A stretch of DNA of 64,000 bases from Octopus sinensis (taxonomy: Eukaryota), in assembly GCF_006345805.1 (NCBI RefSeq), contig NC_043007.1, positions 18,600,001-18,664,000 on the forward strand. Reading direction: 5' to 3'. Shown piece after piece: positions 2,601-54,080 of the stretch (its first letter is position 1; the number at the start of each line of letters is the position of its first letter). The notes under the pieces were generated by a model. It had not been told where the DNA came from. It worked only from the letters and a program-made list of their open reading frames with translations, and did no database searches. The translations under genes were made by a program, and so were the position numbers.

Positions 2601-2701
2601 CTGTAACACTTGACGCTAGATCTACAAGTCCCTCTGAGTCGTCTGATTCCTCTGATTCTGAAGAAGAAAAAGAAAATGAAAAAGAAAAAGCAAAAAGCAA
2701 T

Positions 2702-2790
<89 letters not shown>

Positions 2791-5700
2791 TGGCAGAAAT
2801 TCAAAAGATAGTGCTCATGGGAACTGCTCATATCCTACGCAAAATACTCTCTATGTAATCCCAAGGTTTAAAACAAACTTTTTTGATTTTTTATTTTTAT
2901 TTTTATTTTATTTTATTTATTTATTTATTTTTTTAATATATTTATTTATTATTTTATTTTTATGTATTAGACATTCACTAGTACAACACCAAAAAAAAAA
3001 AATACCCCAAATATATGGCACAGAACTTCCAACCTGTTGTCTCTTGAGGTCTCTGGGTGAGACTTGGAGCCAACTTGTACAGACATAAAGCAAAAGTCAA
3101 ACATAGAATAATAATAATAATTTTTTTTTTTTTCCTTTACTACCCACAAGGGGCTAAACACAGAGGGGACAAACAAGGACAGACAAACGGATTAAGTCGA
3201 TTACATCGACCCCAGTGCGTAACTGGTACTTAATTTATCGACCCCGAAAGGATGAAAGGTAAAGTCGACCTAATAATAAAATAATAATAAAAATGAAATT
3301 ATTGTATACAGTGGTCAGGTGCACCACAACTTGTCAAAAGTACGTATAAAGCATATGCAGTAATGTACAAATGTCTGGAAGCGAACAGTGTATGAGTCAG
3401 ATACATGCTTGTGTGTGTATGGAGGGGAGAAAATCAGGTGTAGTGTTGTTGAATCTCAGGAAGCATGGAAGTTTTGAAGGATGCAGTGCTCCAACAACTA
3501 ACAACTGATGCCGGCAGTTTGTTCCATGCTTCAGCAACTCTTAGCATGAAAAAAATGTTTCTGAAAGTCATGGGAGCTGTGCTGTTTTCTGACTTTGTAA
3601 ACCTGTCCATGGGTGTTAGACAGGTGGAGTTTGAAAAGGTGCTCAGAGTTATTGTTTGTAAGATGGTCAATAATTTTATGGGTGTCTGCCAAGTCAGCTG
3701 CCAGACGTCAGAGTTTCAACACAGTGACTTTTTTCTGTTAAGAGAATGTGAATGACAAGAAGCATGACCAAACCAAACACCACAATAACAAACCTCCATG
3801 ATAGGAACATTTGGCAACCATTTAAGATCCTACAAAAACATGTGATAAGTGCAAAATACTAAAAATCACAGGTGGAAATCCCAGCAACAACTGTAGCTTC
3901 TCTATTTTAAACACAAAAGTTAAATCTCTCTGAAATCACTCCATGTCATTTTGAGAGAGGAAAAAAACATTGGATGAGGTAGAAATGGATGGTATGTATG
4001 AATAATAGATGGGATGATCATGCCTGGAATGCTCTTCCTGTATGAATAGGTTCAGTAAACTTTTTAATAGGCACACCTTAAGAGTTTCCTTTAGCTGTGT
4101 CCCTAGTGTAAAAAGAAGATATTAGTAGGATGACCAACCACACCTGAGACAGTGGCAGAATGCACATGTAGAGGTAACATCACATGTCTCCTTAATGACC
4201 ACTGTAACAGGGAAACAGTTGCATATGAGACAGATGTAACGTTGAAAGGCCCAAACAGGCAACCAAATGTGTAGAAGTATGCGGGAACAACAGAAGGTCC
4301 CTTCAGAGCCAGTTTCAATAGCCATACGTCCTCCTGTAATATTCCAGAGAGATGAAATGCCACAGCCCTGGCCAAGCACATATAGTTATTAAAGAAAAAT
4401 GCCGTGGTGTACAATACAGAGTGGAGAATCTTAGAGAAGAGCAAACCATATTTTAGTTGCAGCAAGAGAATGCAGATTATGTTTAACTGATAAAAAAGCC
4501 CACACATCTACCTAAACTACAGAAGAGAGATTTTTAATCCTTGCCCACATGAAAGAAGGTATATTTTATTGTACCTACTGGCTCCATCATGACTATAATC
4601 AGCAGTTCTCCATCTTCAGCTCTTTCATCACGATATTCTGAGATCCTTGTTAGGATTTTAAACAAAACATACAAACAAACACACAGACACATATGTACTC
4701 TTACATAAAAATCACCATTTGAGCATGGCCGTTGCCTTTTCTGCCTGACTGGCCCTCATGCCGGTGGCACGTAAAAGCACCCGCTACACTGTCAGAGTGG
4801 TTGGCGTTAGGAAGGGCATCCAGCTGTAGAAACTCTGCCAAATCAAGATTGGAGCCTGGTGCAGCCATCTGGTTCGCCAGACCTCAGAGAATCGTCCAAC
4901 CCATGCTAGCAAGGAAAGTGGACATTAAACGATGATGATGATGAGAGTGTGACAAAGCTGGCCCTTTGAAATACAGGTACAACAGAAACAGGGAGAAAGA
5001 GTGAGAGAAGGTGTGGTGAAAGAGTACAGCAGGGTTTGCCACCACCCTCTGCCGGAGCCTCATAGAGCATTAAGTGTTTTCGCTCAATAAACATTCACAA
5101 TGCCCGGTCTGGGAATCGAAACCACGATCCTACGACTGCAAGTCTACTGCCCTAACCACTGGGCCATTGCGCCTCCACTATGTGTGTCTACATAAATATA
5201 CGCATGTGTGTATACATAAATATCGCCTAGATTGGCTTCTGTGCCGGTGGTACATAAAAAGCGCTATCCGAATCATGGCCGATGCCAGTGCCGCCTCGAC
5301 TTGCTTCCGTGCCGGTGGCACGTAAAATGCACCAATCCGATAGTGGCCGTTGCCAGCCTCGCCTGGCACCTGTGCAGGTGGCACATAAAAAGCACCCACT
5401 ACACTCACGGAGTGGTTGGCGTTAGGAAGGGCATCCAGCTGTAGAAACATTGCCAGATCAGACTGGGCCTGGTGCAGCCTTCTGGCTTCCCAGACCCCAG
5501 TTGAACTGTCCAACCCATGCTAGCATGGAAAAACGGACGTTAAACGATGATGATGATGATGATGCATGTGTTTGTATACACACACATAAGCACACACACA
5601 CAAGCAGATGCACCCATGCACACCTCTTCGCAGCACTGACAGTTCTGTCCATTAACACGAGTAGTCAAGTAATTAACTTTCTCAGAAACATACCTGAGCT

Positions 5701-8349
5701 AGTATCTACATAAATAGCTTCATCACCTGCTTCAACAACGGCTACATCACCTGCTTCATCACCTGCTTCAACAACGGCTACATCACCTGCTTCTAAAGAA
5801 GAAGAAGAAAGAAGAAAGATTGAAAAGAAAACAATTGAAGAATAACTTTTACATACCTTCATTTTCTCAGTTCATACCTTGCAACAAAGGATTTACACAC
5901 ACACACACACACACACAAACATATATACAGACACAGGTATGGCTGTGTGGTTAAGATGCTTTGTTCCTAAACCATATGGTTTTGGGTTCAGTTCCACTGT
6001 GTGACACCTTGGGCAAATCTCTTCTACTATAGCCCCAGGGCATCCCAAAGCTTTGTGAGTTGATCTGGTAGATGGAAACTGGGTTCTTTTTAAGAGAGTT
6101 CAAGCTGGTCACTAACAAGGTGACAAGACTTTGAGTTAAGAGAGTTCCTGGTGTTGATATGTAGTTGAGTTGGTATGTTGGTTGAGTTGGTATGTTGGTT
6201 GAGTTGGTATGTTGGTTGAGTTGGTATGTTGGTTGAGTTGGTATGTTGGTTGAGTTGGTATGTTGGTTGAGTTGGTATGTTGGTTGAGTTGGTATGTTGG
6301 TTGAGTTGGTATGTTGGTTGAGCTGTCAATACATACACCCTAGTATGTGTATCTATTCATCTAAAGAATCTCAGAGAATTTTTGTTATGTCTTACAAAAT
6401 ATTAGCCATCTTACTAACTATAACTCTGAGCACCTTTTCAAATTCCACCCGTCTAACACCCGTGGACATGTTTACAAAGTCAGAAAACAGCACAGCTCCC
6501 ATGACTTTAGAAACATTTTTTCATGCTAAGAGTTGCTGAAGCATGGAACAGACTGCCGGCATCAGTTGTTAGTTGTCGAAGCACTGCATCCTTCAAAACT
6601 TCCATGCTTCCTGAGATTCGCCAACACTACACCTGATTTTCTCCCCTCCATACACACACAAGCATGTATCTGACTCATACACTGTTCGCTTTCCAGACAT
6701 TTGTACATTACTGCATATACTTTATACGCACTTTCTGATAAGTTGTGGGGCACCTGAGCACTGTATACAATAATTTCATCCTCATCATCACCCCACCACC
6801 ACCACCACCACCACCACCACCACCACCACCATCAGCAGCAGCAGCATAATAACAACATGATCATGATGGTGGGTGTGCACGATATAATGAGTATTTAGGA
6901 AATTAATTCTTTCAGTGCGTAACTGGTACTTTATTTATCGACCCCGAAAGGATGAAAGGCAAAGTCAACCTCAGTGGAATTTGAACTCAGAACATAATGG
7001 CAGATGAAATACTTGTTGTTGTTGACCCCCTTCGGTCACGACACTGACCATGGGATTGCACCTAGAAAGTTACCCTCCTAGTCACAAGTCTGGGCAAGGT
7101 GGTTTATGGAAGACCAGCAGTCGCCCATGCATACTAGCCTCCCCTCTCCACACCACCAGTGTTATCCAGGGGAAAGACAAAGGTCGATACAGCTTGGTAC
7201 CTGTGAAGTTGCAACTCATTCCTACAGCTGAGTGAACTGGAGCAACGTGAAATAAAGTGTCTTGCTCAAGAACACAACACACAGCCTGGTCCGGGATTCG
7301 AACTCACAACCTCACGATCGTAAGTTTGACGTTCTAACCATTGAGTCATGCACCTTCACCCAGATGAAATACTGCTAAGCATTTCGCCCGCATACGGGCT
7401 GGACATCCAAAGGTGCCTCTGCTTTTTCAGCTACTTCTGAAGAAGAAAAAGAACATTATCATTTGTACATTTTGGCTGAATGATTTTGCTTGGTAAGGTG
7501 GAATATTTCTTCCTAACAAATGTAGCCATTAAAGTAATTGTTTTTCTGAAAAATTTGAGATTGTTGGGTTTTTCTTATCTCAATATTCTTTAAGTCTTTT
7601 CATGCAGCCTAATGCCAGATTGTTTCATTGCAATGGTGAAAGTATAGTAATTTCCCGAGTGGTATGTATTTCAAAAAAGGTTGTTGGTTTGCTTTTACTC
7701 AAAGAAAATAACCATTTCTTTTACCAGGCTTGCATTAATGACAATAATCATAGAAGATAGTATTGAACAGTCCCCTATGCCAACATGTCTGGCCTATGTT
7801 CAACACTATGATTGTGTGTGTGTGTGTGTGTGTGTGAGCCCTTGTCTTGATATCACGTGATGGTTGTAGAGTAGCATCACTATCATATAAGTGAGGGTGT
7901 TCATTTCCAGTCTTCTGTAAAAACATGGATTATGTAAAATGCTACCTCGTTTGGAAATAAGTGAGGGTTGGTGCTAAAAGGGGTGTCTGTCTGGCCCATG
8001 TGAGTATAGGAAAGAGGATGTTAAATGATGATGATGATATATAAATATGTTTGTGTATGTACACATAAACATGTGTGTGCGTGCATGTTATATACATATG
8101 TGTATGTGTGTATATATATAAACACACATGCACATACACCCACACCCACACACATTGCTTTCGGTCATGATGGTGGGTGTGCACGATATAATGAGTAGTT
8201 AGGAAATTAATTCTTTCAGTAACCTACCTGTGACAGCGGGCTGGACATCCAAAGGTACCTCTGCTTTTTCAGCTGCTTCTGAAGAAGAAAAAGAAGGTAA
8301 AAGATTGGAAAGAAAACAGTTAAATAATAATTGTTACATGCACACACAT

Positions 8350-8391
<42 letters not shown>

Positions 8392-11300
8392 TTCTTCATC
8401 TTGATGATAGGTCTGATCAATATCTTGAGCAGCTAGGTAACGGACATTCTCAGAAACCTACCTTCAACATCAGGTGTGCTTGCTTTATCAACTGCTTCTG
8501 AAGAAGAAGAAAAAGAAGAGAAATTGAAAAGAAAACAAATAATAAATGTCATCCCCAGCAACAGATGATGCACACATACATACATATAATTATTTTCAGG
8601 ATCCAACAAAATCAAAGGGTTTTAATAACAAAGTTCGTTTGGGTAGACAAGAAATGTATGTACCGGGAGAGAGGTCAGCTGACCTGCTGATGTGAATATC
8701 TCTTTGAAAATCAAAGAGAAAGAAGATAACTAGGGACAACTGCTTCCAAACCTCCAGCTTCTGTATCCGGATTACTAGTTTTAGTCCGGACTAAAACTAG
8801 TCCGAGCGTATCACTCAGGCTTGCGAGGAAGGGATGGCCTCCCTTTGCAAATACCCCAAGGACACTGATATTGTGTCTAAAGCCAGCTAGAGACGACGAT
8901 CCCTTGGGGCTATAAAGCTACAGTAACACCCCCTCCCCAATGTGGTTAGCCGTGATAAGATGGTTTCTATACTTTACATTATCGAGCGATTACTGTTTCA
9001 ATCTCATTCTGAGATTTAAATATGCTTACTGTCAGTTTTTCGAAATCAGTGGCAAACACCACTAGAAAAGCTCTTATATATTTGCAAGGAAGCCTTCACT
9101 TTCGTTGCATCCTGGTGGTTACCGCCCGTTGACAAGGGACAAATATCCCGAAACTAGTTCGAGCGTATCACTCAGGCTTGCGAGGAAGGGATGGCCTCCC
9201 TTTGCAAATACTCCAAGGGCACTGATATTGTGTCTAAAGCCAGCTGGAGACGAAGATCTCTTGGGGCTATAAAGCTACAGTAACACCCCCTCCCCTATGT
9301 GGTTAGCCATGATAAGATGGCTTCTATACTTTACATTATCGAGCGATTACTGTTTCAATCTCATTCTGAGATTTAAATATCAGAGTAGATATTTACTTAA
9401 TGAAAAAGTAAGCACTGTTCTAATAAAGTCCATACCTTCCTCTTCCTCCTTCAATGACTCTTCTTCTGTTGCTAGAACTTCTTCCTGAGGTGTACTGACC
9501 TCAGTTTCTTCAACGCTCACAGGAGTTTGTAAAAGATTTTGATCTTCTTCACTTAAAAACCTTCCTACTACTTCTTCCTCTGATAATGCGATATCTCTTC
9601 TAGAGCCTTTCTCTGGAGCCATCTTCTCAATCACAGACCCTTGTGTCAAAGCACTTTCAGTTTCACTCATCACATCACTTGCAGCTTTTGCTAACTGATC
9701 AGCCTCATCAGTTAATGCATCATCAGGCAACTCAACATCTTCATCCTGAGATAATTCAGATCCATCCTCTGCAAACAAAAGTCCAGAACAGTATGTCTAT
9801 TATAATACAAACTTTAACATTAATTAAAATGAATAACATTTGAAAAAAATAAAAATGGAAAAACATTCTTTTCAGTATAAACATGTAGAAGCAATAGTAT
9901 TATTATTATTATCATTACTACTAAGGCAGTGAGCTAGCAGAACTGTTAGCACACCAGGCAAAATGCTTACTCTTTTACTTGTTTCAGTCATCTGACTGCG
10001 GCCATGCTGGAGCACCGCCTTTAGTCAAGGAAATCGAACCAAGCACTTATTCTTTGTAAGCCTAGTACTTATTCTATTGGCCTCTTTTACCAAACTGCTA
10101 AGTTACGGGGGACATAAACACACTAGCATCTGTTGTCAAGCGATGTTGGGGGGGGGGGCAAACATAGACACACAACCACACACACACACACATATATACA
10201 ACGGGCTTCTTTCAGTTTCCGTCTACCAAATCCACTCACAAGACTTTGGTCGGCCCGAGGCTATAGCAGAAGACACTTGCCCAAGGTGCCATGCGGTGGG
10301 ACTGAACCCGGAACCATGTGGTTGGTAAGCAAGCTACTTACCACACAACCACTTCAGAGTAGATGCGAGTAGTTGAATCTGGCCTATTTGAACATAAAAC
10401 AGAATATTTGGATCAAATATGGCCAGTTTAAGTGCTAATGGGTTAAATCAATGGTGCAGCATGGGGGTATGTAGAAAATTAGGCGGCGAGCTGGCAGAAT
10501 CGTTAGCACGCCGGGCGAAATGCTTAGCAGTATTTCATCTGCCATTATGTTCTGAGTTCAAATTCCGCTGAGGTTGACTTTCCCTTTCATCCTTTCGGGG
10601 TCGATAAATAAAGTACCAGTTACGCACTGGGGTTGATGTAATTGCCTTAATCTCTTTGTCTGTCCTTGTTTATCCCCTCTATGTTTAGCCCCTTGTGGGC
10701 AATAAAGGAATAATGGGTATGTAGAATATACAGAATGGTTACTTTATATATGTGTATTTATCAGTGACGTAGCTAGAGGTGGATTTTCTAAGGGTGGATG
10801 CCCTTCTTGTCTCCAACGCTAACCTGTTTCCAAGCAAGGTGATATCTCCCCATGGCCAGACATGTTTTCTAGGAAGAATGGGAATGAATGACACTGCTGG
10901 CATGACAGTGGCACTTGTTTACAACTAACACCTGGAGTTTACATCTAACACAAGGAGACAGTGACACATACACACATGTGCACACACACATACACACACA
11001 CACACACATGTGTGTGATGGGCTTCTTTTGTTCAATCCAGTCGCAAGGCTTTGGTCAGCTTGGGGCTATAGTTGAAGACATAATATGACACTTGTCAGAC
11101 ATAATAAGATGCTTGTGTGGAAATTAGGTTTGGAATCAAAAGGCCTTAGAATCAATGTAGCAAAAACCAAAGTTCTAGTAAGCAGGAAGGTGAACTCTTC
11201 ACTCCCACCCCTCAGGTAGGTGGACCTGCTCAATCTGTAGAAAAGGTGTCGGTAGAAACTCCATAAGATGTACCCAGTGTAAGCTATGGACACATAAGAG

Positions 11301-12373
11301 GTGCAGCAACATCAAAGGAAAATTAACCGAGAAGATAGCTATCGTGTGTGGCAGATGCACTGGGGCAATAGACACCACAGATACTCAGAAAACAGATTCC
11401 ATCTAACTCCAGTGGGAGAAACTAGAAGTAGTTGATGGGTGACCAAGTTAGTAGTGGGGGTGGATGCTCAGAGAGTGTTACCACTAGAATAAGAATAGCA
11501 TGGGAAAAGTTTAGAAAGCTTCTTCACCTACTGGCGACAAAGGGTCTCTTTCTCAGAATGAAAGGTAGATTGTATGACACATGTGTGCGAACCGCCATAC
11601 TTCACGGCAGTGAAACATGGGCCATGATTGCCAAGGACATGTGTAGGCTTAAAAGAAATGAAGCTAGCATGATCTGCAGGATGTGTAATGTCAGTGTGCA
11701 TGCACGACAGAGTGTAAGCGTCCTGAGATAACTGTTGGGCATAAGAAGCATTGGATGTGGCATGCAGGAGAGACATTTGTGTTGGTATGGTCATGTACTA
11801 AGGATGGATGAGGAGAGATGTGTGAAGAAGTGCCACTCCCAAACAGTTGAAGGAATCCGGGGTAGAGGTAAACCCAGGAAGACATGGGATGAGGTGGACC
11901 TTCGAACGTTGGGCCTCACAGAAGCAATGACGAAAGACTGAGACCTCTGGGGATATGCTGTGACTGCGAAGACCCGACAAATGAAGTGAGTTCATGGCTT
12001 GCAGGACGGCCTGCTGTGCTTACCTTGGATCATCTTACCATGCTGCCATGCCAAAACCTTATTGCTATCAGAACTGGATAAACTTACAGACCATGAGTCT
12101 CACTGAGACTAAGGCAGGATTAGCAGGATTAGCTCTAAATACCTAAGGGATTATATTATGTGAAAATATGATGTAGCAGTTAAGATAAGGCAAGTTTTAA
12201 TCATTACCAAAAGTCACTAAGCCCTGAATGTTACCTTCACCTTCTTCATCCCCTTCCTGACTGCCTTCACCATCATCTTGCAGAATGATACTCTCACTTT
12301 GGTCTGCATTCTCATCTTCGCCTACGTTTGTCTCCTCTTCTTGCTCAATATTACTTGAATTGGGATCAGCCAT
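2601..12373 (-). CDS. Unidentified gene with Glu/Asp-rich N-terminus, copy A (3'-incomplete, probably continues left of the window). Coding exons 12373-12235, 9768-9436, 8497-8462, 8278-8228, 5792-5694, 2657-2601; possible extra exon 4637-4575
   Basis: Each exon has a pyrimidine-rich AG acceptor and a GT donor, all phase 1-1, joining into one ORF: MADPNSSNIEQEEETNVGEDENADQ.../EDGSELSQDEDVELPDD.../EAVDKASTPDVE/EAAEKAEVPLDVQPAVT/EAGDVAVVEAGDE.../ESEESDDSEGLVDLASSVT. Putative 5'UTR exons at ~14505-14466 and 13280-13221. No recognisable domain. Confidence 0.72.
2704..2790. repeat. (AAT)n microsatellite
   Basis: Directly visible. Confidence 0.95.
3290..3715 (-). mobile_element. CR1-clade LINE 3' fragment. 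Related copies at 6400-6780(+), 18275-18660(+), 25207-25590(+), 33585-33710(+)
   Basis: Peptide SNTRGHVYKVRKQHSSHDFRKHFF..RVAEAWNKLPASVV is a CR1 ORF2 C-terminus; (AAT)n tail. Confidence 0.85.
4150..4570 (+). mobile_element. Degenerate Penelope-like element, GIY-YIG endonuclease region
   Basis: Translation with stops and a frameshift: ECTCRGNITCLLNDHC...KYAGTTEGPFRASFNSHTSS...NATALAKHI*LLK...EWRILEKSKPY...CRLCLTDK...LNYRREIFNPCPHE. This follows the Penelope GIY-YIG C-terminal pattern. Confidence 0.8.
6164..6322. repeat. 17-bp minisatellite (gttgagttggtatgttg) x ~9; paralogous array of ~5 units at 25037-25127
   Basis: Directly visible tandem units. Confidence 0.95.
7020..7358 (-). mobile_element. 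tRNA-derived SINE family 4 (head GAAGGCGCATGGCTCAGTGG), nested in a family-1 SINE; second copy at 56203-56478
   Basis: tRNA-like head ...TGGTTAGAACGTC...GTGAGTTCGAATCCCGG on the minus strand. It interrupts the family-1 SINE at cagatgaaatact, which is duplicated on both sides. Confidence 0.8.
7396..7436 (-). pseudogene. Dead duplicate of microexon 8278-8228 (donor lost to a SINE insertion)
   Basis: EVAEKAEAPLDVQP vs EAAEKAEVPLDVQPAVT. The downstream intron resumes at 6860-6916, homologous to 8166-8220. Confidence 0.75.
8774..9380. repeat. Segment with ~225-bp direct repeats (8797-9023, 9153-9380) and a 28-bp perfect palindrome at its left end
   Basis: Near-identical repeats actagt(c/t)cgagcgtatcactcaggc...gagatttaaatat; palindrome actagttttagtccggactaaaactagt; absent from unit B. 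Confidence 0.85.
11070..12030 (+). mobile_element. RTE-clade LINE, decayed 3' half
   Basis: GGGCSESVTTRIRIAWEKFRKLLHLL...KGRLYDTCVRTAILHGSETW...WYGHVLRMDEERCVKKC...RGRGKPRKTW. Confidence 0.9.
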
Positions 12374-12805
12374 TGTAATATTATCTAGAGAGAAATGATA
12401 AAATAAAATAAAATAGAATTTTGTAAGTATTTGTACTGTCCGACTTCAATGGTACTGTCGCACCCGTTCTCTTATAGCAGGTGAAATGTGGGCTGCTACA
12501 AAGAGGGAAGAACATTGGCTACAACACAAATGGCCAGGAAGAGAAGATCCATGCAAGAATATATCCAAAATGAATTAATTCAAGAATGGATCATGGCTTG
12601 CACTGAGTTCACTGCAGAAAATTTCTGCCAACATCTTTCCTACATATTGAGCAAAGCCATTTTCTCGAAGGAAGTAGAGTTTTGTCTGTTCTCTTGCTAT
12701 CTAGAACTTTAAAAATAGAAAGAAAAGAAAAAGAGACAGAGCAAGACACCGTATACTAGATAATACAATCCTATTTAAAAAAAATAAAAATAAGATGTAG
12801 TAGTA

Positions 12806-13186
12806 GGAGCACTCCGTCGGTTACGACGATGAGGGTCCCAGCTGATACGATCAACGGAACAGCTTGCTCGTGGAATTAACGTGCAAGTGGCTGAGCACTC
12901 CACTGACACGTGTACCCTTAACGCAGTTCTCGGGGATATTCAGCGTGACACAAAGAGTGACAAGGCTGGCCCTTTGAAATACAGGTACAACAGAAACAGG
13001 AAGAAAGAGTGAGAGAAAGTTGTGGTGAAAGAGTACAGCAGGGTTCACCACCATCCCCTGCCGGAGCCTCATGGAGCTTAAGTGTTTTCGCTCAATAAAC
13101 ACTCACAATGCCCGGTCTTGGAATCGAAACCGCGATCCTACGACCGCGAGTCCGCTGCCCTAACCACTGGGTCATTGCGCCTCCAC
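12806..13186 (-). mobile_element. tRNA-derived SINE family 3 (head GGAGGCGCAATGGCCCAGTGG). Other copies at 4945-5178, 17286-17666, 22970-23351, 25754-26125, 39679-40061; variant at 60697-60987
   Basis: A box TGGCCCAGTGG, B box GGTTTCGATTCC, and a conserved ~380-bp body. Confidence 0.88.
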
Positions 13187-13714
13187 AAAAAATAAGATGA
13201 GAACAGCGGGAATGCCCTACCTGGGGTTAAATCATACTAACAACACTTTGAGAAGATACTTCTTTGGGAATTTTAAGGTGCTATTTATAAGATATATAGA
13301 GCCGTGAAATGACTTTTAAACGTTTAAAAGAAAAATCAAAATACACAAAGTAGAAAAACACATTTCAAACATTTATAAGGAAAACGAAAAAGAGTCAATG
13401 TTTTAACTTTTAAACATTTCGTATGAGAGATAGAGCGAAATTATAAAAATGAAATTGTTTAAGTGAAAAACGAAACAATTAGATGCTTTACGAATCTGGA
13501 CAAGCGCCTCAAAGATTTGATTTCCACCCTGCGTAACCTTAAAAGACAGAGGAGGAAGGGTGAAGTAAAAAAACTGATTTGATTTTAAAAACAATGAAAA
13601 GATAGGAAGAAGAATATGTGTATATTTCTATACTCAGAATGTATCTCTGTGAGACCATAGGCTTATAGTGTGCATGGTGGATTAGCGGAGAATCTTGTCT
13701 CTCACAGTGACAGA

Positions 13715-14040
13715 AGGCCCTTCATCTGGGATGCCAGATGACACATGCTGTGGCACCTCCAGCGGCAGCTTGGTGTTGTCAGCTACCAACCCAGGCTCCG
13801 CTGCTCGTCAGGCTGAGAAAAACAGTCAAACTTTCCGACAGGTTTATGGTCGAACTTGTAACAATGCAGACCTCCAGCACACTTGGCCCCCGGACCATAT
13901 CCCCGATTACCGATATCGGGGCGGAGATTGCTGTCTGCAAGTGCGAGCCCCGTGGAGTCAGAGTGGCTATTCCAACGCATCTCCCTCGCTATCCTCCGGG
14001 ACAAAACCTTTTCCATTTTGTCTACTGGTGCCATGGGAAA
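13715..14040 (+). mobile_element. CRE-clade (restriction-like endonuclease) non-LTR retrotransposon 3' relic; paralog at 29535-30565 split by a CR1
   Basis: Frameshifted WD..DT...SATNPGSAARQAEK..LSDRFMVELVTMQTSSTLGP...EPRESEWLFQRISLAILRDKTFSILST resembles the CRE RLE pattern AAA.AE..K..KY.....FVPVAVET.G..G...FQRLSVAVQRGNA. Confidence 0.7.
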
Positions 14041-14465
14041 TGTTTCTATATTCTGGGAGGCAAGATTCTCCGTTAATCCATCGCGTATACTATAAGCTTT
14101 TGAATGTTTCACAGAGACAAGTCCCCCATACAAAAACAGATACATTTTCTTCTTCCGATCTTCTTATTCCTTTCTACTCAAATCTATTTTTCACTTCACT
14201 CTTCCACCTTAAAAATGATTTTAAATAAAGTTTGTAATTATTTTAGGTATCGTGTACTTGCCGGAATGTCTATTGGTGCCGGATAATCTAGGTGAATGTT
14301 GTTGAATGGCTTAACGTGATGTAAACACACCAAAAGTGAAGTCAATAAACAATATAACAAATAAGTCGGTGATAACTAATGCACTTGGGAGATGGATGAA
14401 TACCACAACTCATTGTTTCTATAAGTGTCACGAACGAGGAAATACGAAATTATTCTTTTGATTAC

Positions 14466-14535
14466 CTTGAAAGTGGACAGGTTCAACTTAACGGTCGGTC
14501 AGACAAGCGGAAGTGTAGCCATGACAACCTCACGC
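14466..14535 (-). promoter_or_regulatory. Promoter/first exon of acidic gene copy A: ETS site CGGAAGT (14508-14514) abutting an RFX X-box GTAGCCATGACAAC (14515-14528); donor CAAG|GTAAT at 14466
   Basis: Exact fit to the X-box consensus GTHNYY-AT-RRNAAC, locally CpG-rich, and identical in unit B. Confidence 0.65.
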
Positions 14536-15027
14536 ACTACCTACATGACAATCGTTAATCCCAACACCATCACAACCACAATCTTACTACCACCACCATC
14601 GCCCTACTGCTGCGAGTACCACAACTATCATCACAGTTTCTACTCTGTCATCGTCATCACTGCTTTCCCAAACTGCCATGAATTGGGTGGGTCTTCCCCA
14701 GCTGGGCATTTCGTTCTGTATTGCTTCCCATACATTCTTCCTTATTTCTTCTTCATACATTCTCGGCATTTAATGTCTACGCGTCACTTCTCTTTAACAT
14801 TGCGCTGAATACACGAGTATCGGACAATCTACCTTCCACTGGGAAAGGTAATCCTTTATTGGTGGTGGAGGTAATAGGTTCCTGAAACCAGCCGCCTCCT
14901 GTGCTTATGTTTACGGGGCGAAATTCTGCTTTAAGCACCCCTCGTAACTTGTTTTATTTTTTTTTAATCTTCAGAAAACTTTTGCGATTTTGTGCTCTAC
15001 ACACGAGATTATCAAAAATAAATGTGG

Positions 15028-15151
15028 GATCTGTTCACTTTGACCGGCACATTTAAAAAATAATTTTTTGTAACTAAACACTTTTAAACTTCGTAGAATG
15101 TTACATACAGAAAAATATTTTTTAAATGTGCCGGTCAAAGTAAAAAGATCC
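15028..15151. mobile_element. Short MITE (TIR ggatct.tt.actttgaccggcacatttaaaa)
   Basis: Terminal inverted repeats; related TIR to the element at 43249-43657. Confidence 0.7.
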
Positions 15152-17743
15152 TAAATGTGTGTGATTTAAGAGTGATTTAGCTATTGTTTTTAGCACATCC
15201 CACGACCACCTGATACCTCGTTGTCACTCTGACATGTATTGATGTTTTTCAATATTTTTCTCCTCCTACACACATTTGATGATGCACCCAAGGGTGGTTC
15301 GTTGCTGGGATTTTAGCAGAAAATTAGAACTGTCCGTATTAGAAACCCTGATTTTAAAACGGAAATTTGAGGATTTATAGGGTGGGGCTGAAAATTTTTT
15401 GTTTATAATCATATGTATTCCGTGTGTAGAGCACACATTCACGAACATTTTCTGACAAATACAAAGTTGAGGGTGTTTAAACCAGAATTCTGTCATTCAC
15501 AGAACTTCTACCTCCATAGTACAATCAGTAAACTATTCTTGTACCTCTTCTACACACAATGTTGTCCTTTCCTATGAGCCTGTTTGTGACCCCACAATAC
15601 CTTTTTTTGCCCCCATTGTATACACTGGGTACACCATATGGGAATCCTCCCTAGTTATTCTCTGCATTCTGAGAATGGTTGCTTCTCAAATGTCAGCATA
15701 GTCCTGTTTGAAGCTTCTTGATTCTATGTTATGCTTCTTCATTTGGAATTTCTTTTCTCGTAATTCTTTGACAGATTCAGCAATAAGGAATTGGTCACTG
15801 GCATACAAGACTTCCAACAGACAGCTGGTCTTAAACTCCTCTATTGTGGCCTGTAAAACTATAATAAACAAAAATGGGGCTGAGTACTGAAACATGATGG
15901 ACCCTTACCTGCTTTCTAAATTCTTTCCTGAACTCAGTGCCAAATATCACTTTGCATAGAGCATCATCTCTGTATAGGGCTTGTATTGCCTTTACAAGTC
16001 ATTTGTCAGCATTGTTTTCTTAGTGGTTACCAGATTACAGAGCATGATAACATATGAAAGGCCTTCATTTCAACAAATGCTAACTATAATGGTTTATTCT
16101 TTTCTTTTTTATTTAATTTTTAAAGACAGTATGGTATTAAAGATTTGGCTGCTATTTCCAGCAGATAGTGTATCCATATCATTCTCACTAGTGATTAAAA
16201 TTCCCAAATTATTTGGAAGTGAAGCTAGAATTAACTTTCAGCTTTTTATTTCTTATTCAAATGGCTGCAAAGAAATAACACAATTGAGATGACAACAGGC
16301 ATCGACAGGCTAAATGATGAAATAAGACACAGATGCTGGAACTGGATCGGACATGTTCTCAGACAAGATTGCAAAAGTGACTTGGTGGCACTGAAGTGGC
16401 AGTCTGAAGGGAAAAGAACAGCAGGGCACCCTAAAACCATATGGTGAAGAAACTATTACTACTACATCTGATGACAATAATAATAATGATCCTTTCTACT
16501 AAAGGTACAACGCCTGAAATTTTGGGGGAGTGGCACGTAAAAAGCACCAACCGATTGTGGCTGCTGCCAGCCTCCCCTGGCACGTAAAAAGCACTCACTA
16601 CACTCACGAAGTGGTTGGCGTTAGGAAGGGCTCCCAGCTGTAGAAAACACTGCCAGATCAGACTGGAGCCTGGTGCAGCCTCCTGGCTTCCCAGACCCCA
16701 GTTGAACCATCCAACCAGTGATAGCACGGAAAACGGACATTAAATGATGACGATGATGATGATTGGACAAGTCGATTACATTGATCCCAGTGTTTCACTG
16801 GTACTTAATTTATTGACCCCTGAAAGGATGAAAGGCAAAGTCGACCTCGGAGGAATTTGAACTCAGAATGTAGTGACAGACAAAATACCACTAAGCATTT
16901 CACCCAGCATGCTAATGATTCTGCCAGCTCAACACCTTAGTATTATGTCATTATAAATCGACCTTGGTGGGAATTGAGCTAAGAATGTCATGAGTGAAGA
17001 AATGCTGATAGGCGTTTTGTTGAATGTGCTAAGAATTCTGTCAGCACACTGCTTATAATCTTTTATTTGTTTCAGTCATTTGGCTGTGGCCATGCTGGAG
17101 CAACTCCTTTAGTCCAGCAAATCAACCCCAGGCCTTATTCTTCGTAAACCTAGTACTTATTCTATCGGTCTCTTTTGCCAAACTGCTAAGTTACAGGGAC
17201 GTAAACACACCAGCATCAGTTGTCAAGCGATGTTGGGGGGACAAACACAGACACACAAACATATACATACATATATATGGAATGGAAGCACTCCGTCAGT
17301 TACGACGACGAGGGTTCCAGTTGATCCGATCAACGGAACAGCCTGCTCGTGAAATTAACGTGTAAGTGGCTGAGCACTCCACAGACACATGTACCCTTAA
17401 TGTAGTTCTCGGGGATATTCAGCGTGACACAGAGAGTGACAAGGCCGGCCCTTTGAAATACAGCTACAAGAGAAACAGGAAGTAAGAGTGAGAGAAAGTT
17501 GTGGTGAAAGAGTACAGCAGGGATCACCACCATCCCCTGCCGGAACCTCGTGGAGCTTTAGGTGTTTTCGCTCAATAAACACTCACAACGCCCAGTCTGG
17601 GAATCGAAACCGCGATCCTACGACCGCGAGTCCACTGCCCTAACCACTGGGCCATTGCGCCTCCACATACATATATATATATACGTTTAAATATTTGTTG
17701 TGCAAGATTTTTTATGTGAAGTCGTGTGACCATTCCGAAATAT

Positions 17744-17802
<59 letters not shown>

Positions 17803-18074
17803 ATATATATATATATATACATATGACTGGCTTCTTTCAGTTTCTATCTACCAAATCCACTCACAAGGCTTTGGTCGGCCTGAGGCTGAAGACACTTGTC
17901 CAAGGTGCCACACAGTGGAACTGAAACCAGAACCATGTGATTGGTAAGCAAGCTACTTACTAGCACAGCCACTCCTGGCTTTTAATAATGAAATAACAAG
18001 AATGATGATGATGATGATACAAACTTCAAAACATCAAGTGACACGAAGATACTGTTTAAACAATTTATTTAAAA

Positions 18075-21000
18075 TTATACACTCGCTTTTTTGTCCCAAT
18101 CTTTCATTTTGGTGCTGTCGAGTATGAAGTCATCTTTCAGAAAATTCCAAATCTTTTTCTCAGGTTCAGGCTGAAGTAGATAGATATGGTGAATATTTAT
18201 TGTGCAAGTAAATTAACTCAAGGCAAACACAATCAACACAACAACAACAACACAGGTGGACAGAACCAATGCAGCAACCATCTTACAAACAATAACTCTG
18301 AGCACCTTTTCAAACTCCACCTGTCTAACACCTGTGGACATGTTTACAAAGTCAGAAAACAGCACAGCTCCCATGACTTTCGGAAACATTTTTTTCATGC
18401 TAAGAGTTGCTGAAGCATGGAACAAACTGCTGACATCAGTTGTTAGTTGTCGGAGCACTGCATCCTTCAAAACTTCCATGCTTCCTGAGATTCGCCAACA
18501 CTACACCTGATTTTCTTCCCTCCATACACACGCAAGCATGTATCTGACTCATACACTGTTCACTTTCCAGACATTTGTACATTACTGCATATGCTTTACA
18601 TGCACTTTTGACAAGTTGTGGTGCACCCGAGCACTGTATACAACAAGTTCATTATTATTATTATTAAAACACATGGACAGTCCAGCCAAGAAATTAGTTG
18701 AATGGTCAGAAGAGGTGAACATAGTTAACACAATAACACAGGCAAACAGAGTCAACATAACAGAAACAGTCAACACAACAAAACAGGTGAACATAACAAT
18801 TATACAGGTAATCACATACCTGTACTATCTTAATCCTTCAGCATTCAGATTACTCTGTCAAATGTGATGCTTATTTATTCATATTATTATGAATTAATCA
18901 TGCATAATCTCATAGCTTCAAGATTCTGATGAATGATGTGGTAGTTTATTTTTAGAATGATATTGTAAGGTAGGTATAAGGGGCTATATTTGGCCAGTTT
19001 GAGCATAAAGCAGGTAAAATATTTTAGTTGGATAAGGCCAGTTTAAATGCCAAAGTGTTAAGGCATAAGCAGACAGAGCAGTTGCATGGGAGTCTCATGG
19101 GTTCAGGGGACCAATTCTGATCTATGTATGCTGTGACTTGCTGTCAATAAATAACTACTATAGGGCCCAATGTATTGATTTGCCTGTAGGCCTCATGGGT
19201 CTAAGGACCTAATTCTCATTTATCAGCATCGCCTTACTGGTACTTGTGCCGGTGGTATGTGAAAAACAACATTTGAGCGAGGGCGTTGCCGGTGCCACTG
19301 GACTGGCTTCTGTGCAGGTGGCACATAAAAAACACCATTTGAGCGTGGCCGTTGCCTTTTCTGCCTGACTGGCCCTTGTGCTGGTGGCACGTAAAAGCAC
19401 CCACTACACTCTCGGAGTGGTTGGCATTAGGAAGAGCATCCAGCTGTAGAAACTCTGCCAGATCAGATTGGAGCCTGGTGCAGCCATCTGGTTCACCAGT
19501 CCCCAGTCAAACCGTCCAACCCATGCCAGCATGGAAAGCGGACATTAAACAATGATGATGATGATGAAAGCGGTGGTTGGTGTAAAATAGTTTGATTCAG
19601 CTCCAAGCAACATAAAGTTCCATAGCCTCATCACAAGAGTTTAGCTTGTGCTCAGGTGAGTCTACAAAACTTAATGTTGTATAGGGCCAAATCAATCTAT
19701 TTAAAATAATAACATACACACACATATATACATACATACACACACACACAAACAGATAACATAACTAATGGATAACACAAGTCGGGGACAAGACAATACT
19801 CATGAACAAAAGACATAACTAATGGATGATAACATGACTAGGTTAACAGGACATAATTAAAGGGTAACACAAGGGAGAAGAGAAATGACCAATGGAAGAT
19901 ATACGGTAAATCTTCTAGTATAGTCCGCCCTTGAGTAAAATACGTAGGGGATTTTTAGGGGGCTGTACCTCTGAAAAACCTAAACCTTGTGTATAATACA
20001 CACTCCTTCTCTAACTTGAGTCAAGGAGGTCTATATAACGTCCTTGGTTTGTAAAAATGTATACAGCAACGTCCTTTATTATTATTGTATATATAACATA
20101 ATGCAAACGTGTAGCTTTTTTGTGCATTTTGTTTGCAGAAAATAAAGAAATAACAATAATAACAACAATAACATTTAATAAATGTTGCTTATTGTAAGTT
20201 ATGGATGATTCTTTTATGACTTCATTGCTTTCAGGCTTAGCTTAAGATATTTTCGCGCCCGACATCACAAAATGCGTCTGAATAAACATTGCCGGACAGC
20301 AAATAGAGACTCGGACATTGCTTAGAAAATAATTTTCATTTTTAACCTCGTATATAGTACGCACTAGGGATTTTGACCTTTAAATTTTGGGGAAAAATTG
20401 CGGATTATACTCAAGGATTTACGGTAATTGAGGAACACAAGACATAACTAATGGATAACATGACTTGAAAAGACATGAAATAACATGACTAGAGGAGGAG
20501 GTGGGATAACTAATAGATCATATGACTAGGTAAGCAGTGGAATGAGTAGGAGGAAGTAGTCAATTAAGAGCCAAGTTACTAAATTACTTACTTTAATTGT
20601 GTCGTCTGGTTGAGATGACAAATTAACTTTCGGCATGTTTTGAAGCAGGTGAAAGAATGACATCTGCTCTGTGTTCTCAGAGATTTTCTGTTTTTTCCAC
20701 TCAGTTGTGTTTATGGTATTTTCGTTCTCCTCATTCAGTTTCTGTTGTTCCTGTACAGCATTGAATAGCTGGACAATACCTCTGAAAAGAATATATATAT
20801 ATGTATATCTCTATATATATATAAATACATACAAGCAAAATGCCCCCCCCCCCACGTCCAATGGTCGGTGCTGAATCAAATCAGCTGAATAAAGAGCAAT
20901 CAGTGTTTTATTTTCATTAAAAAATAATTAAGCATGCCTTTATTTCAATAAATTTTTTGGTTTTGTTAAATGAAGTTAAGGCAAATAAAAAACTTCTTGA

Positions 21001-21262
21001 GAAACCAAATAGTCTTTCCTTCCTCCAGGCCAAGTTTGAAGAAAATATCTCTTTTACATCTTACTTTTTTGGTCTCTTAAACATACTGCATTTTGTGGTA
21101 TTATTTCAAGCCAGCCTTGAAATAACTTTCCCCTTCAGGCATACAATGAAGTACAAAATAGAAAAACAAATCTTACTGTGTAGCTACTGCTGTCAATTGG
21201 CGTTCTTTATTTATCTCAAGGACATTAGGCTTTGTTCTGGCTAAAAGAAGTTTAAAGATCCT
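18075..21262 (-). pseudogene. RRP15: Orphan duplicate of the last three RRP15 coding exons (21262-21177, 20781-20592, 18170-18075); frame and splice sites intact
   Basis: RIFKLLLARTKPNVLEINKERQLTAVAT/QGIVQLFNAVQEQQK.../PEPEKKIWNFLKDDFILDSTKMKDWDKKASV*. Same exon lengths (86/190/96) as the main gene, AATAAA retained, no 5' exons of its own. Confidence 0.85.
19902..20426. mobile_element. Tc1/mariner-pogo type MITE (TA ends); paralog at 34912-35436
   Basis: tacggtaaatcttctagtatagtccgc ... gcggattatactcaaggatttacggta inverted termini. Confidence 0.75.
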
Positions 21263-21594
21263 CTGGATAAGAAAAAAAGAAAGAGAAAAACAGCAAAATG
21301 AATTAAAGGGGAAGAGAAAAAATAAAACCAACAAGAAATATCTAAAATTTATGAGTGATGTTTATATTTCCATGCTTGCATGGGTCAGATGGAATTTGTA
21401 GAGGCAGATATTCTACAGCTGGAGGCTCTTCCTGTTGCCAACCCTCACCATTCTTTTCATGCAAAAAAATATTTTCCCATGACCAGACATGTTTTCCAAA
21501 GAAGACTGGAAGCAAACAACCTTGCTTCTATGATGATGATGGTGATGATGATGATGACAGTGATTTACAACCATCATGTTATGTCTAGAGAAGG

Positions 21595-21630
21595 GTATAC
21601 ACCAGCATTTCTCAACCAGGGTTCTGTAAG
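21595..21630 (+). mobile_element. Left terminus of a hAT element (TSD gtatacac + CAGCATTTCTCAACC)
   Basis: Partner right terminus GGTTGAGAAACACTG + gtatacac at 40302-40324. Confidence 0.65.
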
Positions 21631-22915
21631 AAAGAGTAAGATAAGCTAATGCTAATTTCAGGATCATAATATTGACATCATCCTATCTAACCTATTATGT
21701 TATCAAAAAATATAACAACCTTGGAAAAATAAAAATCAAGTCAAGTTATTTCACTCGACTTTACGTCTGTCCACCACAAATACTGGAATCGTAAAATCAC
21801 TAGAAAACCGTTAAAAACACATAAAATCATGTTACTGTACATCATCATCATCGGGTTGGATGGTTCAACAGGGATCTGGGAAGCCAGGAGGCTGCACCAG
21901 GCTCCAGTCTGAACTGGCAGTGTTTCTACAGCTGGATGCCCTTCCTAATGCCAACCACTCCAAGAGTGTAGTGGGTACTTTTTACGTGCCACTGGCACAG
22001 GGGCCAGAGGAGGCTGGCTACGGCCATGATCGGTTGTTGCTTTTTATGTGCCACCAGCACGGACGCCAGTCAAGGCGACACTAGCATCGATTAAGAATAA
22101 AAGCCTATAAAGTCATATTAAAATATGTACAGTAAATGTTAAGATACACACCATAAAGTAGTGTAGCTTAGTGAATGAAATCAGCTGTGTTGTTTTATTT
22201 ATCGGTTTTTCAGGGCTGATATTGCACTGTAGTTCCAATATCCACTCTTAGACATCGTTGCCTCTCCTGATTCCCGCAGTTGTTTTGAATTCAGATTTGT
22301 TTACGTCTGTTTATCAGCTAATTTCTTATTCTCATTCATTTGTGACTTTATTTTTTTGCTCTCATGGCTCCCAAGAAAATTCATATTGAAAGTACTAAGC
22401 ATCATGCTTATAATACCGGAAGATAAACTGGCTACGATAAAACGTCATGCAAAAGTGAAAAAGTGGTAACAATTGCACGATCTTTTGGGATGAGCCAGAC
22501 AACTGTATCGACAATTGTACATAATAAAGACAAGATTTTAGCACACATTTTATTAACCATTCCAACTCTATATGAATACTAACCCTAGCCCCTGCACACA
22601 AAGAACTCTTGCAGACTTACAGCATCTCAGAGACCTTTGGGGTCAAGGGACATAACTCAATATCTTAATATAACGCTTGCTCAGTTTGTTTTGCTTTTTT
22701 CACAATATCCACAAAATGGATGTGTTTTTTCAGCTCCAATAACAGAGAGCAGTCACAATATATTTTCTCCATATCTGCCAGCTCTGATGAACATGCAGTA
22801 TTGCTTAACCATGCGATTATCTAACATCCGGTTTAGTATCCAGTGTGAAACCGACTCTTAAAATCAGCCACAATGAATATATAATACTGTACACTTCAAT
22901 TAATATACATAGATA

Positions 22916-22951
<36 letters not shown>

Positions 22952-23497
22952 ATTATGTATGCGTGTATTGTGGAACTCCGTCTGTTATGATGACGAGGGT
23001 TCCAGTTGATCAGATCAACAGAACAGCCTGCTCGGGAAATAAACGTGCAAGTGGATGAGCACTCCACAGACACCTGTACCCTTAACGTAGTTCTCAGGGA
23101 GATTCAGCGTGACACAGTATGTGACAAAGCTGGCCCTTTGAAATACAGGTACAACAGAAACAGGGAGAAAGAGTGAGAGAAGGTCATGGTGAAAGAGTAC
23201 AGCAGGGTTTGCCACCATCCCCTGCCAGAGCCTCATAGAGCTTTAGGTTGTTTTCGCTCAATAAACATTCACAATGCCCGTCCTGAGAATTGAAACCACG
23301 ATCCTACGACTGCAAGTCTGCTGCCCTAACCACTGGGCCATTGCGCCTCCACTATGTGTGTATACATAAATATACACATATGCATGTGTTTGCATACACA
23401 CACACAAGCACATGCACCCATGCATCCATCTTCGCAGCACTGACAGTTCTGTCCATTATCACGAGTAGTCAAGTAATTAACTTCCTCAGAAACACAC

Positions 23498-28694: not shown

Positions 28695-29747
28695 TGTAAT
28701 ATTATCTAGAGAGAAATGATAAAATAAAATAAAATAGAATTTTGTAAGTATTTGTACTGTCCGACTTCAATGGTACTGTCGCACCCGTTCTCTTATAGCA
28801 GGTGAAATGTGGGCTGCTACAAAGAGGGAAGAACATTGGCTACAACACAAATGGCCAGGAAGAGAAGAGCCATGCAAGAATATATCCAAAATGAATTAAT
28901 TCAAGAATGGATCATGGCTTGCACTGAGTTCACTGCAGAAAATTTCTGCCTACAACTTTCCTACATATTGAGCAAAGCCATTTTCCCGAAGGAAGTAGAA
29001 TTTTGTCTGTTCTCTTGCTATCTAGAACTTTACCTACCTGGGGTTAAATCATACTAACAACACTTTGAGAAGATACTTCTTTGGGAATTTTAAGGTGCTA
29101 TTTATAAGATATATAGAGCTTTGAAATGACTTTTAAACGTTTAAAAGAAAAATCAAAATATATAAAGTAGAAAAAGACATTTTAAACATTTATAAGGAAA
29201 ACGAAAAAGAGTCAATGTTTTAACTTTTAAACATTTCGTATGAGAGATAGAGCGAAATTATAAAAATGAAATTGTTTAAGTGAAAAACGAAACAATTAGA
29301 TGCTTTACGAATCTGGACAAGCGCCTCAAAGATTTGATTTCCACCCTGCGTAACCTTAAAAGACAGAGGAGGAAGGGTGAAGTAAAAAAACTGATTTGAT
29401 TTTAAAAACAATGAAAAGATAGGAAGAAGAATATGTGTATATTTCTATACTCAGAATGTATCTCTGTGAGACCATAGGCTTATAGTGTGCATGGTGGATT
29501 AGCGGAGAATCTTGTCTCTCACAGTGACGGAAGGCCCTTCATCTGGGATGCCAGATGACACATGCTGTGGCACCTCCAGCGGCAGCTTAGTGTTGTCAGC
29601 TACCAACCCAGGCTCCGCTGCTCGTCAGGCTGAGAAAAACAGTCAAACTTTCCGACAGGTTTATGGTCGAACTTGTAACAATGCAGACCTCCAGCACACT
29701 TGGCCCCCGGACCATATCCCTGATTACCGATATCGGGGCGGAGATTA

Positions 29748-30984: not shown

Positions 30985-31055
30985 CTTGAAAGTGGACAGA
31001 TTCAACTTAACGGTCGGTCAGACAAGCGGAAGTGTAGCCATGACAACCTCGTGCA
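30985..31055 (-). promoter_or_regulatory. Duplicated promoter of acidic gene copy B: ETS + RFX X-box (31034-31047), donor at 30985
   Basis: Same motif block gcggaagtgtagccatgacaac as at 14507-14528. Confidence 0.65.

Positions 31056-33813: not shown

Positions 33814-33844
<31 letters not shown>

Positions 33845-48310: not shown

Positions 48311-48341
<31 letters not shown>

Positions 48342-50850: not shown

Positions 50851-50885
<35 letters not shown>

Positions 50886-52786: not shown

Positions 52787-52817
<31 letters not shown>

Positions 52818-54041: not shown

Positions 54042-54080
<39 letters not shown>

What the first reader, a model, noticed from the sequence alone, without database searches (positions are those of the whole stretch)
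2601..9768. Array of paralogous, symmetric phase 1-1 acidic microexons generated by repeated exon+intron module duplication
Seen: exons of 36, 51, 99 and 57 nt (8497, 8278, 5792, 2657), a dead one at 7436, and a 72-nt one at 23569. All start AG|AA after a homologous (ttc)n acceptor; most share the upstream tract ttatt..(c/t)aa(t/c)tg.ttt(t/c)tttt(c/t)..t. Their donor-side introns are similar (GT.(g/c)GTT(t/a)CT(g/c)A..(g/a)aa..). All intact ones are multiples of 3 in the same phase, so any subset can be skipped in frame. Inference: a birth-and-death cassette system that tunes the length and charge of an intrinsically disordered acidic N-terminus. ORF-based annotation would miss these exons.
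Basis: partly seen in the sequence, partly recalled or inferred. Interest (0 to 1): 0.7.

Follow-up and report, generated by a model that had tools for sequence, protein, structure and literature searches.

The report
Duplicated mini-exons lengthen octopus IQUB tail
Four short, related exons in the octopus gene for IQUB, a protein that in mammals anchors a radial spoke of cilia and sperm tails, likely arose by local copying of one exon with its splice sites and lengthen a predicted floppy acidic tail; they are already annotated and are probably always included rather than acting as a switch.

Summary
The 36, 51, 99 and 57 nt exons are real, phase 1-1 and paralogous: their intron flanks beat shuffles and the gene's other introns. 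They are coding exons 3-6 of IQUB in Octopus sinensis, and RefSeq XP_036363057.1 already contains them. The 7436 copy is a young duplicate of the 51-nt module that lost its donor to a repeat insertion. The 72-nt exon at 23569 is no separate birth: it is the 99-nt exon's twin in a ~17-kb tandem duplication (RRP15 3' end plus IQUB 5' end). Duplication and loss are supported. Cassette tuning is not: 5 of 5 annotated Octopus proteins carry all four exons, and one contig's letters and length fit exon 2-36-51-99 exactly. Rare skipping cannot be excluded with contigs. The tail is acidic, predicted disordered, fast-evolving and of variable length across animals. This points to tolerated, mostly constitutive growth of a known kind. 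The best lead lies outside the given interval: the upstream partial copy keeps three open phase-1 exons that can splice in frame into the intact gene. One O. vulgaris isoform does this, giving a 419-residue tail.

The parts
12235..12384 (-). IQUB first coding exon (150 nt from its acceptor, ATG at 12373, phase-1 donor). It has a real acceptor and is open in phase 1 from it
   Evidence: P0091 starts here; P0093 reads through the acceptor (DNITM)
9436..9768 (-). IQUB exon 2, 333 nt, phase 1-1, acidic; flanks not part of the module family
   Evidence: covered by contigs in 4 of 4 runs
8462..8497 (-). module exon 3, 36 nt (12 aa)
   Evidence: contig depth in 3 of 4 runs equals that of the exon-2 contig
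8228..8278 (-). module exon 4, 51 nt (17 aa)
   Evidence: the loose end of a contig of run X17 at 8462 reads the first 30 nt of this exon
7395..7453 (-). dead young copy of the 51-nt module: 17 nt of acceptor tract plus 42 nt of exon, 97% identical, no donor
6917..7394 (.). repeat-derived insertion in place of the dead exon's last 9 nt and donor; homology to the 51-nt module's downstream intron resumes at about 6916-6860
   Evidence: that it is a transposon is inferred from its ends matching dispersed repeats
5694..5792 (-). module exon 5, 99 nt (33 aa), grown internally by repeats of a 12-nt unit; 12 nt longer in O. vulgaris
2601..2657 (-). module exon 6, 57 nt (19 aa); its last three residues begin the first predicted strand of the ubiquitin-like domain; likely the parent module
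23498..23569 (-). 72-nt twin of the 99-nt exon in the upstream partial duplicate (copy B)
   Evidence: included in O. vulgaris isoform CAI9729678.1
26310..26615 (-). copy B of exon 2, 306 nt, open, phase 1-1; lacks the 45 nt that correspond to 9585-9629
   Evidence: one contig of run X4 skips exactly 9585-9629
28556..28705 (-). copy B of the first coding exon, 150 nt, open, splice sites intact
5592..22560 (.). unit A of a ~17-kb tandem duplication (left edge may reach 4948): IQUB exons 5 to 1, upstream region, orphan RRP15 3' exons
23396..39639 (.). unit B of the duplication: partial IQUB 5' copy, upstream region, RRP15 3' exons that continue the RRP15 gene
14515..14528 (+). X-box-like motif upstream of IQUB copy A, candidate promoter element (lead only)
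   Evidence: 2 matches in the window, 0.78 expected by chance; consensus recalled
31034..31047 (+). the same motif upstream of copy B

Best explanation
The four short exons are coding exons 3-6 of Octopus IQUB, paralogues that likely arose by repeated local duplication of one small phase 1-1 exon with its strong splice sites, and they are probably included constitutively, lengthening a predicted disordered acidic tail in front of the ubiquitin-like domain. Shown: gene identity, exon structure and phases, flank homology, a dead young copy, a ~17-kb tandem duplication that explains the 72-nt exon, and splicing of exon 2 to the 36-nt exon and on to the 51-nt exon in contigs. Inferred: the parent was the 57-nt-like exon next to the folded domain. 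Each copy (about 50-60 nt of acceptor tract, the exon, about 30-40 nt of donor-side intron) brought working splice signals and kept the frame, so it survived in a region that tolerates length change. The 99/72-nt exon then grew by slippage of a 12-nt unit. Copies die by repeat insertion (7436) or deletion (copy B has no 36- or 51-nt module). The tail is likely held to being acidic and flexible more than to a sequence or length, so growth is mostly tolerated rather than regulated.
For: P0091 (RefSeq, O. sinensis IQUB) maps letter for letter onto 16 exons, with exons 3-6 being the four modules. Pfam IQUB E=2.5e-49; PDB 8j07_c2 E=6e-159. All 5 of 5 cluster members include all four exons. Flank homology beats shuffles and other introns. 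A profile finds only the 5 training modules and the dead copy at E<1e-7 in 184 kb. Two genome searches gave 3 matches each, all at this locus (lower bounds). An X17 contig holds 116 letters beyond exon 2; the 2-36-51-99 order predicts 116, and three skip orders predict 144, 65 and 93. pLDDT <50 for residues 80-230, with the fold starting at 236. O. sinensis versus O. vulgaris: 10 substitutions in 238 tail residues against 5 in 662 core residues, Fisher p=0.001. Tail length runs from 21 to 419 residues, median 141, in 57 homologues; three Haliotis species have 226, 257 and 296. PMC4317164 reports that most micro-exons are constitutive and carry strong pyrimidine tracts (passages).
Against: Contigs drop rare variants, so minor skipping is not excluded. 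The runs are RNA only by guess (X17 of unknown kind), though the intron bins next to the exons had zero depth. The 152 letters beyond exon 2 in run X1 were not displayed, and their length fits neither full inclusion of the reference allele (116) nor a clean skip of the 99-nt exon (144). X9 was uninformative. The 99-57 and 57-exon 7 junctions rest on annotation alone. The 57-nt exon is tied to the family mainly through the 51-nt one; its body is at chance level against 36 and 99. Low pLDDT in the tail may partly reflect a poor alignment there. One of the 10 tail substitutions lies in the repeat exon and may be an alignment artefact. No third Octopus species was found, so the births cannot be dated.
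Confidence: 0.75

Rival explanations
1. Regulated cassette array: subsets of the exons are skipped by tissue or stage, tuning tail length and charge, for example sperm flagella versus epithelial cilia.
For: All modules are symmetric and encode predicted disorder; PMC3632108 reports both traits enriched in alternative exons (passages). The X1 contig length (152) is unexplained and lies near the 144 expected if the 99-nt exon were skipped. The 99-nt exon holds four in-phase CAG|GTGATG candidate donors.
Against: 0 of 5 annotated isoforms skip any module, although that O. vulgaris annotation added alternative forms from long reads (PMC10700109, passages). The X17 contig fits full inclusion. Tracts are strong, with no TGC in the last 25 nt of any module acceptor (the role of that motif in regulated neural microexons is recalled). 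Skipping the 57-nt exon would change the first strand of the folded domain.
Confidence: 0.15
2. Adaptive lengthening: the tail works as a charged spacer or interaction surface at the base of radial spoke 1, and selection (perhaps on sperm motility) favours a longer, more acidic tail, using exon duplication, repeat slippage and the segmental duplicate as parallel routes.
For: Three routes all lengthen the same tail. Octopus tails are among the most acidic (net charge about -0.3 per residue). Haliotis tails also vary by repeats. IQUB is needed for sperm motility in mouse and man (PMC11755891, passages). Copy B exons stay open with net in-frame indels.
Against: No test of selection was possible. 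Fast change, a dead copy and losses in copy B fit drift equally well. Vertebrates work with tails of about 140 residues. No function of the tail came up in the passages read ('N-terminal' 0 hits in PMC11755891).
Confidence: 0.25
3. Artefact: chance AG/GT pairs in pyrimidine-rich low-complexity DNA, or an assembly error for the duplicate.
For: The window is rich in microsatellites and repeats; (TTC)n tracts inflate similarity.
Against: Shuffle and other-intron controls, annotated proteins in two species and spliced contigs. The duplicate differs from copy A and is also reflected in an O. vulgaris protein (324 of 333 aligned residues identical), so it exists in two assemblies.
Confidence: 0.02

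Closest known systems
IQUB / FAP253 / CMUB116 (radial spoke 1 stalk and base adaptor)
   Same: Same gene: ubiquitin-like domain, IQ region, Pfam IQUB domain; 25 of 31 large deletions in homologues fall on octopus exons 8, 12, 13 or 14, so the core exon structure looks conserved; acidic N-tail.
   Different: Tail of 238 residues (419 in the long O. vulgaris isoform) against about 130-145 in mammals; here it is built partly from four duplicated small exons.
Internal tandem duplication of symmetric exons encoding disorder (PMC3632108, passages read)
   Same: Neighbouring, same-phase, homologous exons encoding a disordered region; this is the general mechanism.
   Different: Young enough that intron flanks are still alignable and a dead copy is visible; lineage-restricted; combined with a partial gene duplicate that can add a further in-frame block.
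Constitutive micro-exons (PMC4317164, passages read)
   Same: Short exons with strong pyrimidine tracts, included in all isoforms seen.
   Different: Only 2 of 4 are <=51 nt; three of the introns around the array are long (2.4-3 kb); not conserved across phyla.
Schistosome micro-exon genes, MEGs (PMC4671649, passages read)
   Same: Run of mostly symmetric short exons encoding disorder.
   Different: MEGs encode small secreted proteins with a signal peptide and a coding core of <36 bp exons; IQUB is a 900-residue axonemal protein with 4 short exons of 16.
Mutually exclusive tandem duplicated exons (PMC9741552, abstract start only)
   Same: Tandem exon duplicates.
   Different: Here the copies are spliced in series, not one instead of another.

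Membership tests
IQUB family | IQUB domain (PF25805) above the curated cut-off | tested here: met
   166.8 bits against a cut-off of 27.8
IQUB family | Ubiquitin-like domain followed by IQ region, collinear with human IQUB | tested here: met
   phmmer 214-866 to 8j07_c2, and 232-334 to 2daf; predicted beta-grasp-like strand/helix order at 236-310
IQUB family | Located at radial spoke 1 in octopus cilia or sperm | not testable with these tools
   inferred from orthology; mammalian data in PMC11755891
Tandemly duplicated symmetric exons | Neighbouring exons homologous beyond chance, flanks included | tested here: met
   (strong for 36/51/99, moderate for 57)
Tandemly duplicated symmetric exons | Same phase at both ends | tested here: met
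   all phase 1-1
Micro-exons (<=51 nt, PMC4317164) | Length at most 51 nt | tested here: inconclusive
   met by 2 of 4 (36, 51), not by 57 and 99
Regulated cassette exon array | Skipping isoforms exist | tested here: inconclusive
   none in 5 annotated proteins; one contig fits full inclusion; contigs cannot show rare forms; one contig length unexplained
Regulated cassette exon array | Tissue- or stage-dependent inclusion | not testable with these tools
   only contigs were served for the runs laid
Schistosome-type MEG | Small secreted protein whose coding core is mostly <36 bp exons | tested here: not met
   900 aa, 16 coding exons, none under 36 nt
Mutually exclusive duplicated exons | Only one copy per transcript | tested here: not met
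   all four in series in 5 of 5 proteins; 36 and 51 joined in a contig

The most novel reading that the evidence does not exclude
Octopus IQUB has two promoters in tandem and two tail sizes. Because every 5' exon is phase 1-1, the upstream partial gene duplicate (exons at 28705, 26615 and 23569, with its own X-box-like site) splices across 11 kb, past orphan RRP15 exons and the first promoter, into the acceptor at 12384. This adds a second acidic block and gives a 419-residue tail beside the 238-residue one. A partial gene duplication thus acts as one large in-frame cassette switched by promoter choice, on top of exon-by-exon growth, and may give sperm and ciliated cells different radial-spoke bases.
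Probability: 0.4. Interest if true: 0.5.

Novelty: new member of a known kind. Interest (0 to 1): 0.3.

Why it matters
It is a clean, recent snapshot of how a conserved axonemal gene grows a disordered tail. Small-exon duplication with intact flanks, slippage inside one exon, death by insertion, and a partial gene duplicate that can splice in frame all sit within about 30 kb. The mechanism is known and the exons are already in public gene models, so surprise is modest. It would matter more if the long isoform is real and tissue-specific: promoter choice would then nearly double the charged tail of a radial-spoke anchor needed for sperm motility, and the tail's function would become testable. 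A full-text search for IQUB with octopus found 0 papers; that library lacks most subscription papers.

Tried and rejected
Other cephalopods: searches with the tail and ubiquitin-like region found only the O. vulgaris/O. sinensis cluster or nothing among shorter proteins. The Argonauta protein is partial and lacks the tail. Exon counts across species therefore stay open. No RNA holder was listed as RNA on record; the runs laid are guessed RNA or of unknown kind. The idea that the 685 letters upstream of exon 2 in the X17 contig include copy B exons was rejected: lengths miss by 7, and copies A and B share 92 31-mers, which should break such a contig. A transposon origin of the module found no support: no copies elsewhere (lower bounds). 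More hidden modules: none at E<0.06 in 184 kb. The X-box is not above chance as a pattern (21 of 100 shuffles reach 2 matches) and is kept as a lead only. Selection on copy B: exon 1 A versus B has 3 nonsynonymous and 2 synonymous differences, too few to judge. PMC13759335 was searched for a stricter microexon definition without a hit; the <=27 nt definition is recalled only and not used. No earlier scan notes were found. No fold search or complex prediction was run, because sequence already identifies the protein. Supplements were not read.
Full report
Setting. The window is G000:C11:18,600,001-18,664,000. The contig length (77,502,973) equals that given for XP_036363057.1 of Octopus sinensis. 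The genome's 13,516 contigs and 2,719 Mb match the O. sinensis row of a table in PMC10700109 (passages). The gene runs on the minus strand and leaves the window to the left, so 120 kb were fetched there.

Observation. The four intact exons (36, 51, 99, 57 nt) and the 72-nt one start AG|AA, end AG|GT, are multiples of three and are open in phase 1. Homology was tested against 1000 dinucleotide shuffles and against the gene's other introns. On the acceptor side, 5 of 6 pairs were reached by at most 1 shuffle, and all 6 beat the best of 66 other-acceptor pairs. On the donor side, 4 of 6 pairs were reached by no shuffle, and 4 of 6 beat the best of 55 other-donor pairs. Exon bodies were significant in 3 of 6 pairs. 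The 57-nt exon is the most distant and links mainly through the 51-nt one. A profile of the five modules finds only them and the dead copy in 184 kb, and two genome searches give only matches at this locus (lower bounds).

The host gene. An exon left of the window hit 90 proteins among 194 candidates, most of them named IQUB. The RefSeq protein P0091 maps exactly onto 16 coding exons; the four modules are exons 3-6, and exons 2-8 are all phase 1-1, including both exons of the ubiquitin-like domain. Pfam and PDB agree. In mammals IQUB is part of the stalk of radial spoke 1, anchors it to the doublet, and is needed for sperm motility (PMC11755891, passages). AlphaFold2 gives pLDDT below 50 for residues 1-67 and 80-230, with the first strand at 236-243, so the last three residues of the 57-nt exon start the fold. 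These residues align with the A-T that precedes V-K in human and mollusc proteins, which makes this exon the likely parent (inference). Of 31 large deletions seen in homologues, 25 fall on octopus exons 8, 12, 13 or 14, so the core exon structure looks old. That the phase-1 intron before the domain is ancestral is inferred, not tested.

Are they spliced, and are they skipped? All 5 cluster members (1 O. sinensis, 4 O. vulgaris) contain all four exons. Contigs of four runs were laid on 8395-9800. Exon 2 was covered in 4 of 4 runs and the neighbouring intron bins had zero depth. In 3 of 4 runs the depth over the 36-nt exon equals that of the exon-2 contig times 27/47 (2.03, 2.81, 7.75); the joint itself was not listed. 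In X17 the loose end beyond the 36-nt exon reads the start of the 51-nt exon. That contig has 116 letters beyond exon 2, exactly where the 2-36-51-99 order meets its first repeated 31-mer; three skip orders predict 144, 65 and 93. Against a firm conclusion: contigs hide rare forms, the runs are RNA only by guess, the 152 letters in X1 were not shown and fit no tested order, and X9 ends after 18 letters. The module acceptors are 88-93% pyrimidine over 40 nt, against 60% and 75% for exons 2 and 1. PMC4317164 links strong tracts to constitutive micro-exons and finds most micro-exons constitutive (passages). Inclusion is therefore the main form; regulated skipping is unsupported but not excluded.

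Birth and death. The 7436 copy is 97% identical to the 51-nt module over 59 nt. A 478-nt repeat-derived insert stands in place of its last 9 nt and donor, after which the intron homology resumes near 6916. The other modules share 56-80% in their flanks, so they are older. The 99-nt exon is built on a 12-nt unit and is 12 nt longer in O. vulgaris. Between the two species the tail has 10 substitutions in 238 residues and the core 5 in 662 (p=0.001). Among 57 homologues with a mappable boundary (of 94 proteins held), tails run from 21 to 419 residues, median 141, and all but one fragment are net acidic. Three Haliotis species have 226, 257 and 296 residues with their own repeats. This is the profile of a composition-constrained, length-tolerant tail.

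The 72-nt exon. Collinear blocks show a tandem duplication of about 17 kb, roughly 5.6-22.6 kb against 23.4-39.6 kb, at 85-99% identity. It copies the 3' exons of RRP15 (Pfam Rrp15p) and the 5' part of IQUB up to the intron after exon 5. The 72-nt exon is the twin of the 99-nt one (59 of 65 and 47 of 52 flank identities). Copy B has exons 1, 2 and 5 but no 36- or 51-nt module; as those modules are more diverged than the duplication, loss from copy B is the likelier order (inference). Its three exons are open with intact splice sites. Joined to the acceptor at 12384 they give a stop-free frame that matches O. vulgaris CAI9729678.1 at 324 of 333 aligned residues. That annotation used Iso-Seq and added alternative forms through PASA (PMC10700109, passages), but whether this model rests on a read is not known. 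One X4 contig (depth 2, 22 letters on the short side) lacks exactly the 45 nt that copy B lacks, a weak hint that copy B is transcribed. Both copies keep an X-box-like motif, not above chance by itself. No junction from 23498 to 12384 was observed here, and the one O. sinensis protein found does not use it.

Comparison and verdict. It works like internal duplication of symmetric, disorder-coding exons as described for human genes (PMC3632108, passages), and is a new member of that kind. It is not a schistosome-type micro-exon gene (PMC4671649, passages) and not a mutually exclusive array. Interest 0.3. The boldest reading left open is the two-promoter, double-tail isoform (probability 0.4, interest 0.5 if true).

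Noticed in passing
window about 20590-20781 and 21177-21262 (minus): Orphan duplicates of two RRP15 3' exons, still open with splice sites; the twins at about 35.6-35.8 kb and 39.1-39.2 kb continue the RRP15 gene whose acidic exon lies at 40533-41123 (that exon had no Pfam hit; its assignment is by position and recalled likeness).
   Followed up: partly
L001:6714-6902 against L001:5960-6146: A 190-nt, 94% identical duplicate of the end of IQUB exon 9 with its donor lies about 750 nt upstream, in intron 8: another local exon-end duplication in this gene.
   Followed up: partly
window 8794-9023 and 9151-9380: 230-nt direct duplicate, 96% identical, in IQUB intron 2; a repeat with high contig depth in all four runs.
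   Followed up: partly
window 9751-9762: Three changes make copy A exon 2 start EDGSELS, whereas copy B and both O. vulgaris copies read EDVPELA; O. vulgaris copy B reads AAS where the window's copy B reads SET. This may be lineage-specific change or gene conversion between the copies.
   Followed up: no
window 6083-6779 against 24956-25586: 98.6-99.4% identity between the two units, well above the 85-96% of most neighbouring blocks: possible recent gene conversion tract; includes a 17-nt tandem array (10 against 6 copies).
   Followed up: no
window 29782-30708 (minus): Reverse-transcriptase-like retroelement fragment inserted in copy B's upstream region only; the collinear map skips 29747-30457.
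   Followed up: no
window 47319-56759 (plus): Exons of a WD-repeat gene that look like DCAF4 (recalled likeness; the one exon scanned had no Pfam hit).
   Followed up: no
window 44534-45043 (plus): 169-aa Ser/Lys-rich open frame, possibly the first exon of the plus-strand gene.
   Followed up: no
L012-L009 (about 84-114 kb left of the window, minus): Long low-complexity, internally repetitive open frames (522, 268 and 161 aa) of another large gene.
   Followed up: no
proteins P0003, P0004, P0009: Haliotis IQUB tails vary in copies of a short acidic repeat (226, 257, 296 residues): a likely independent expansion of the same tail.
   Followed up: partly
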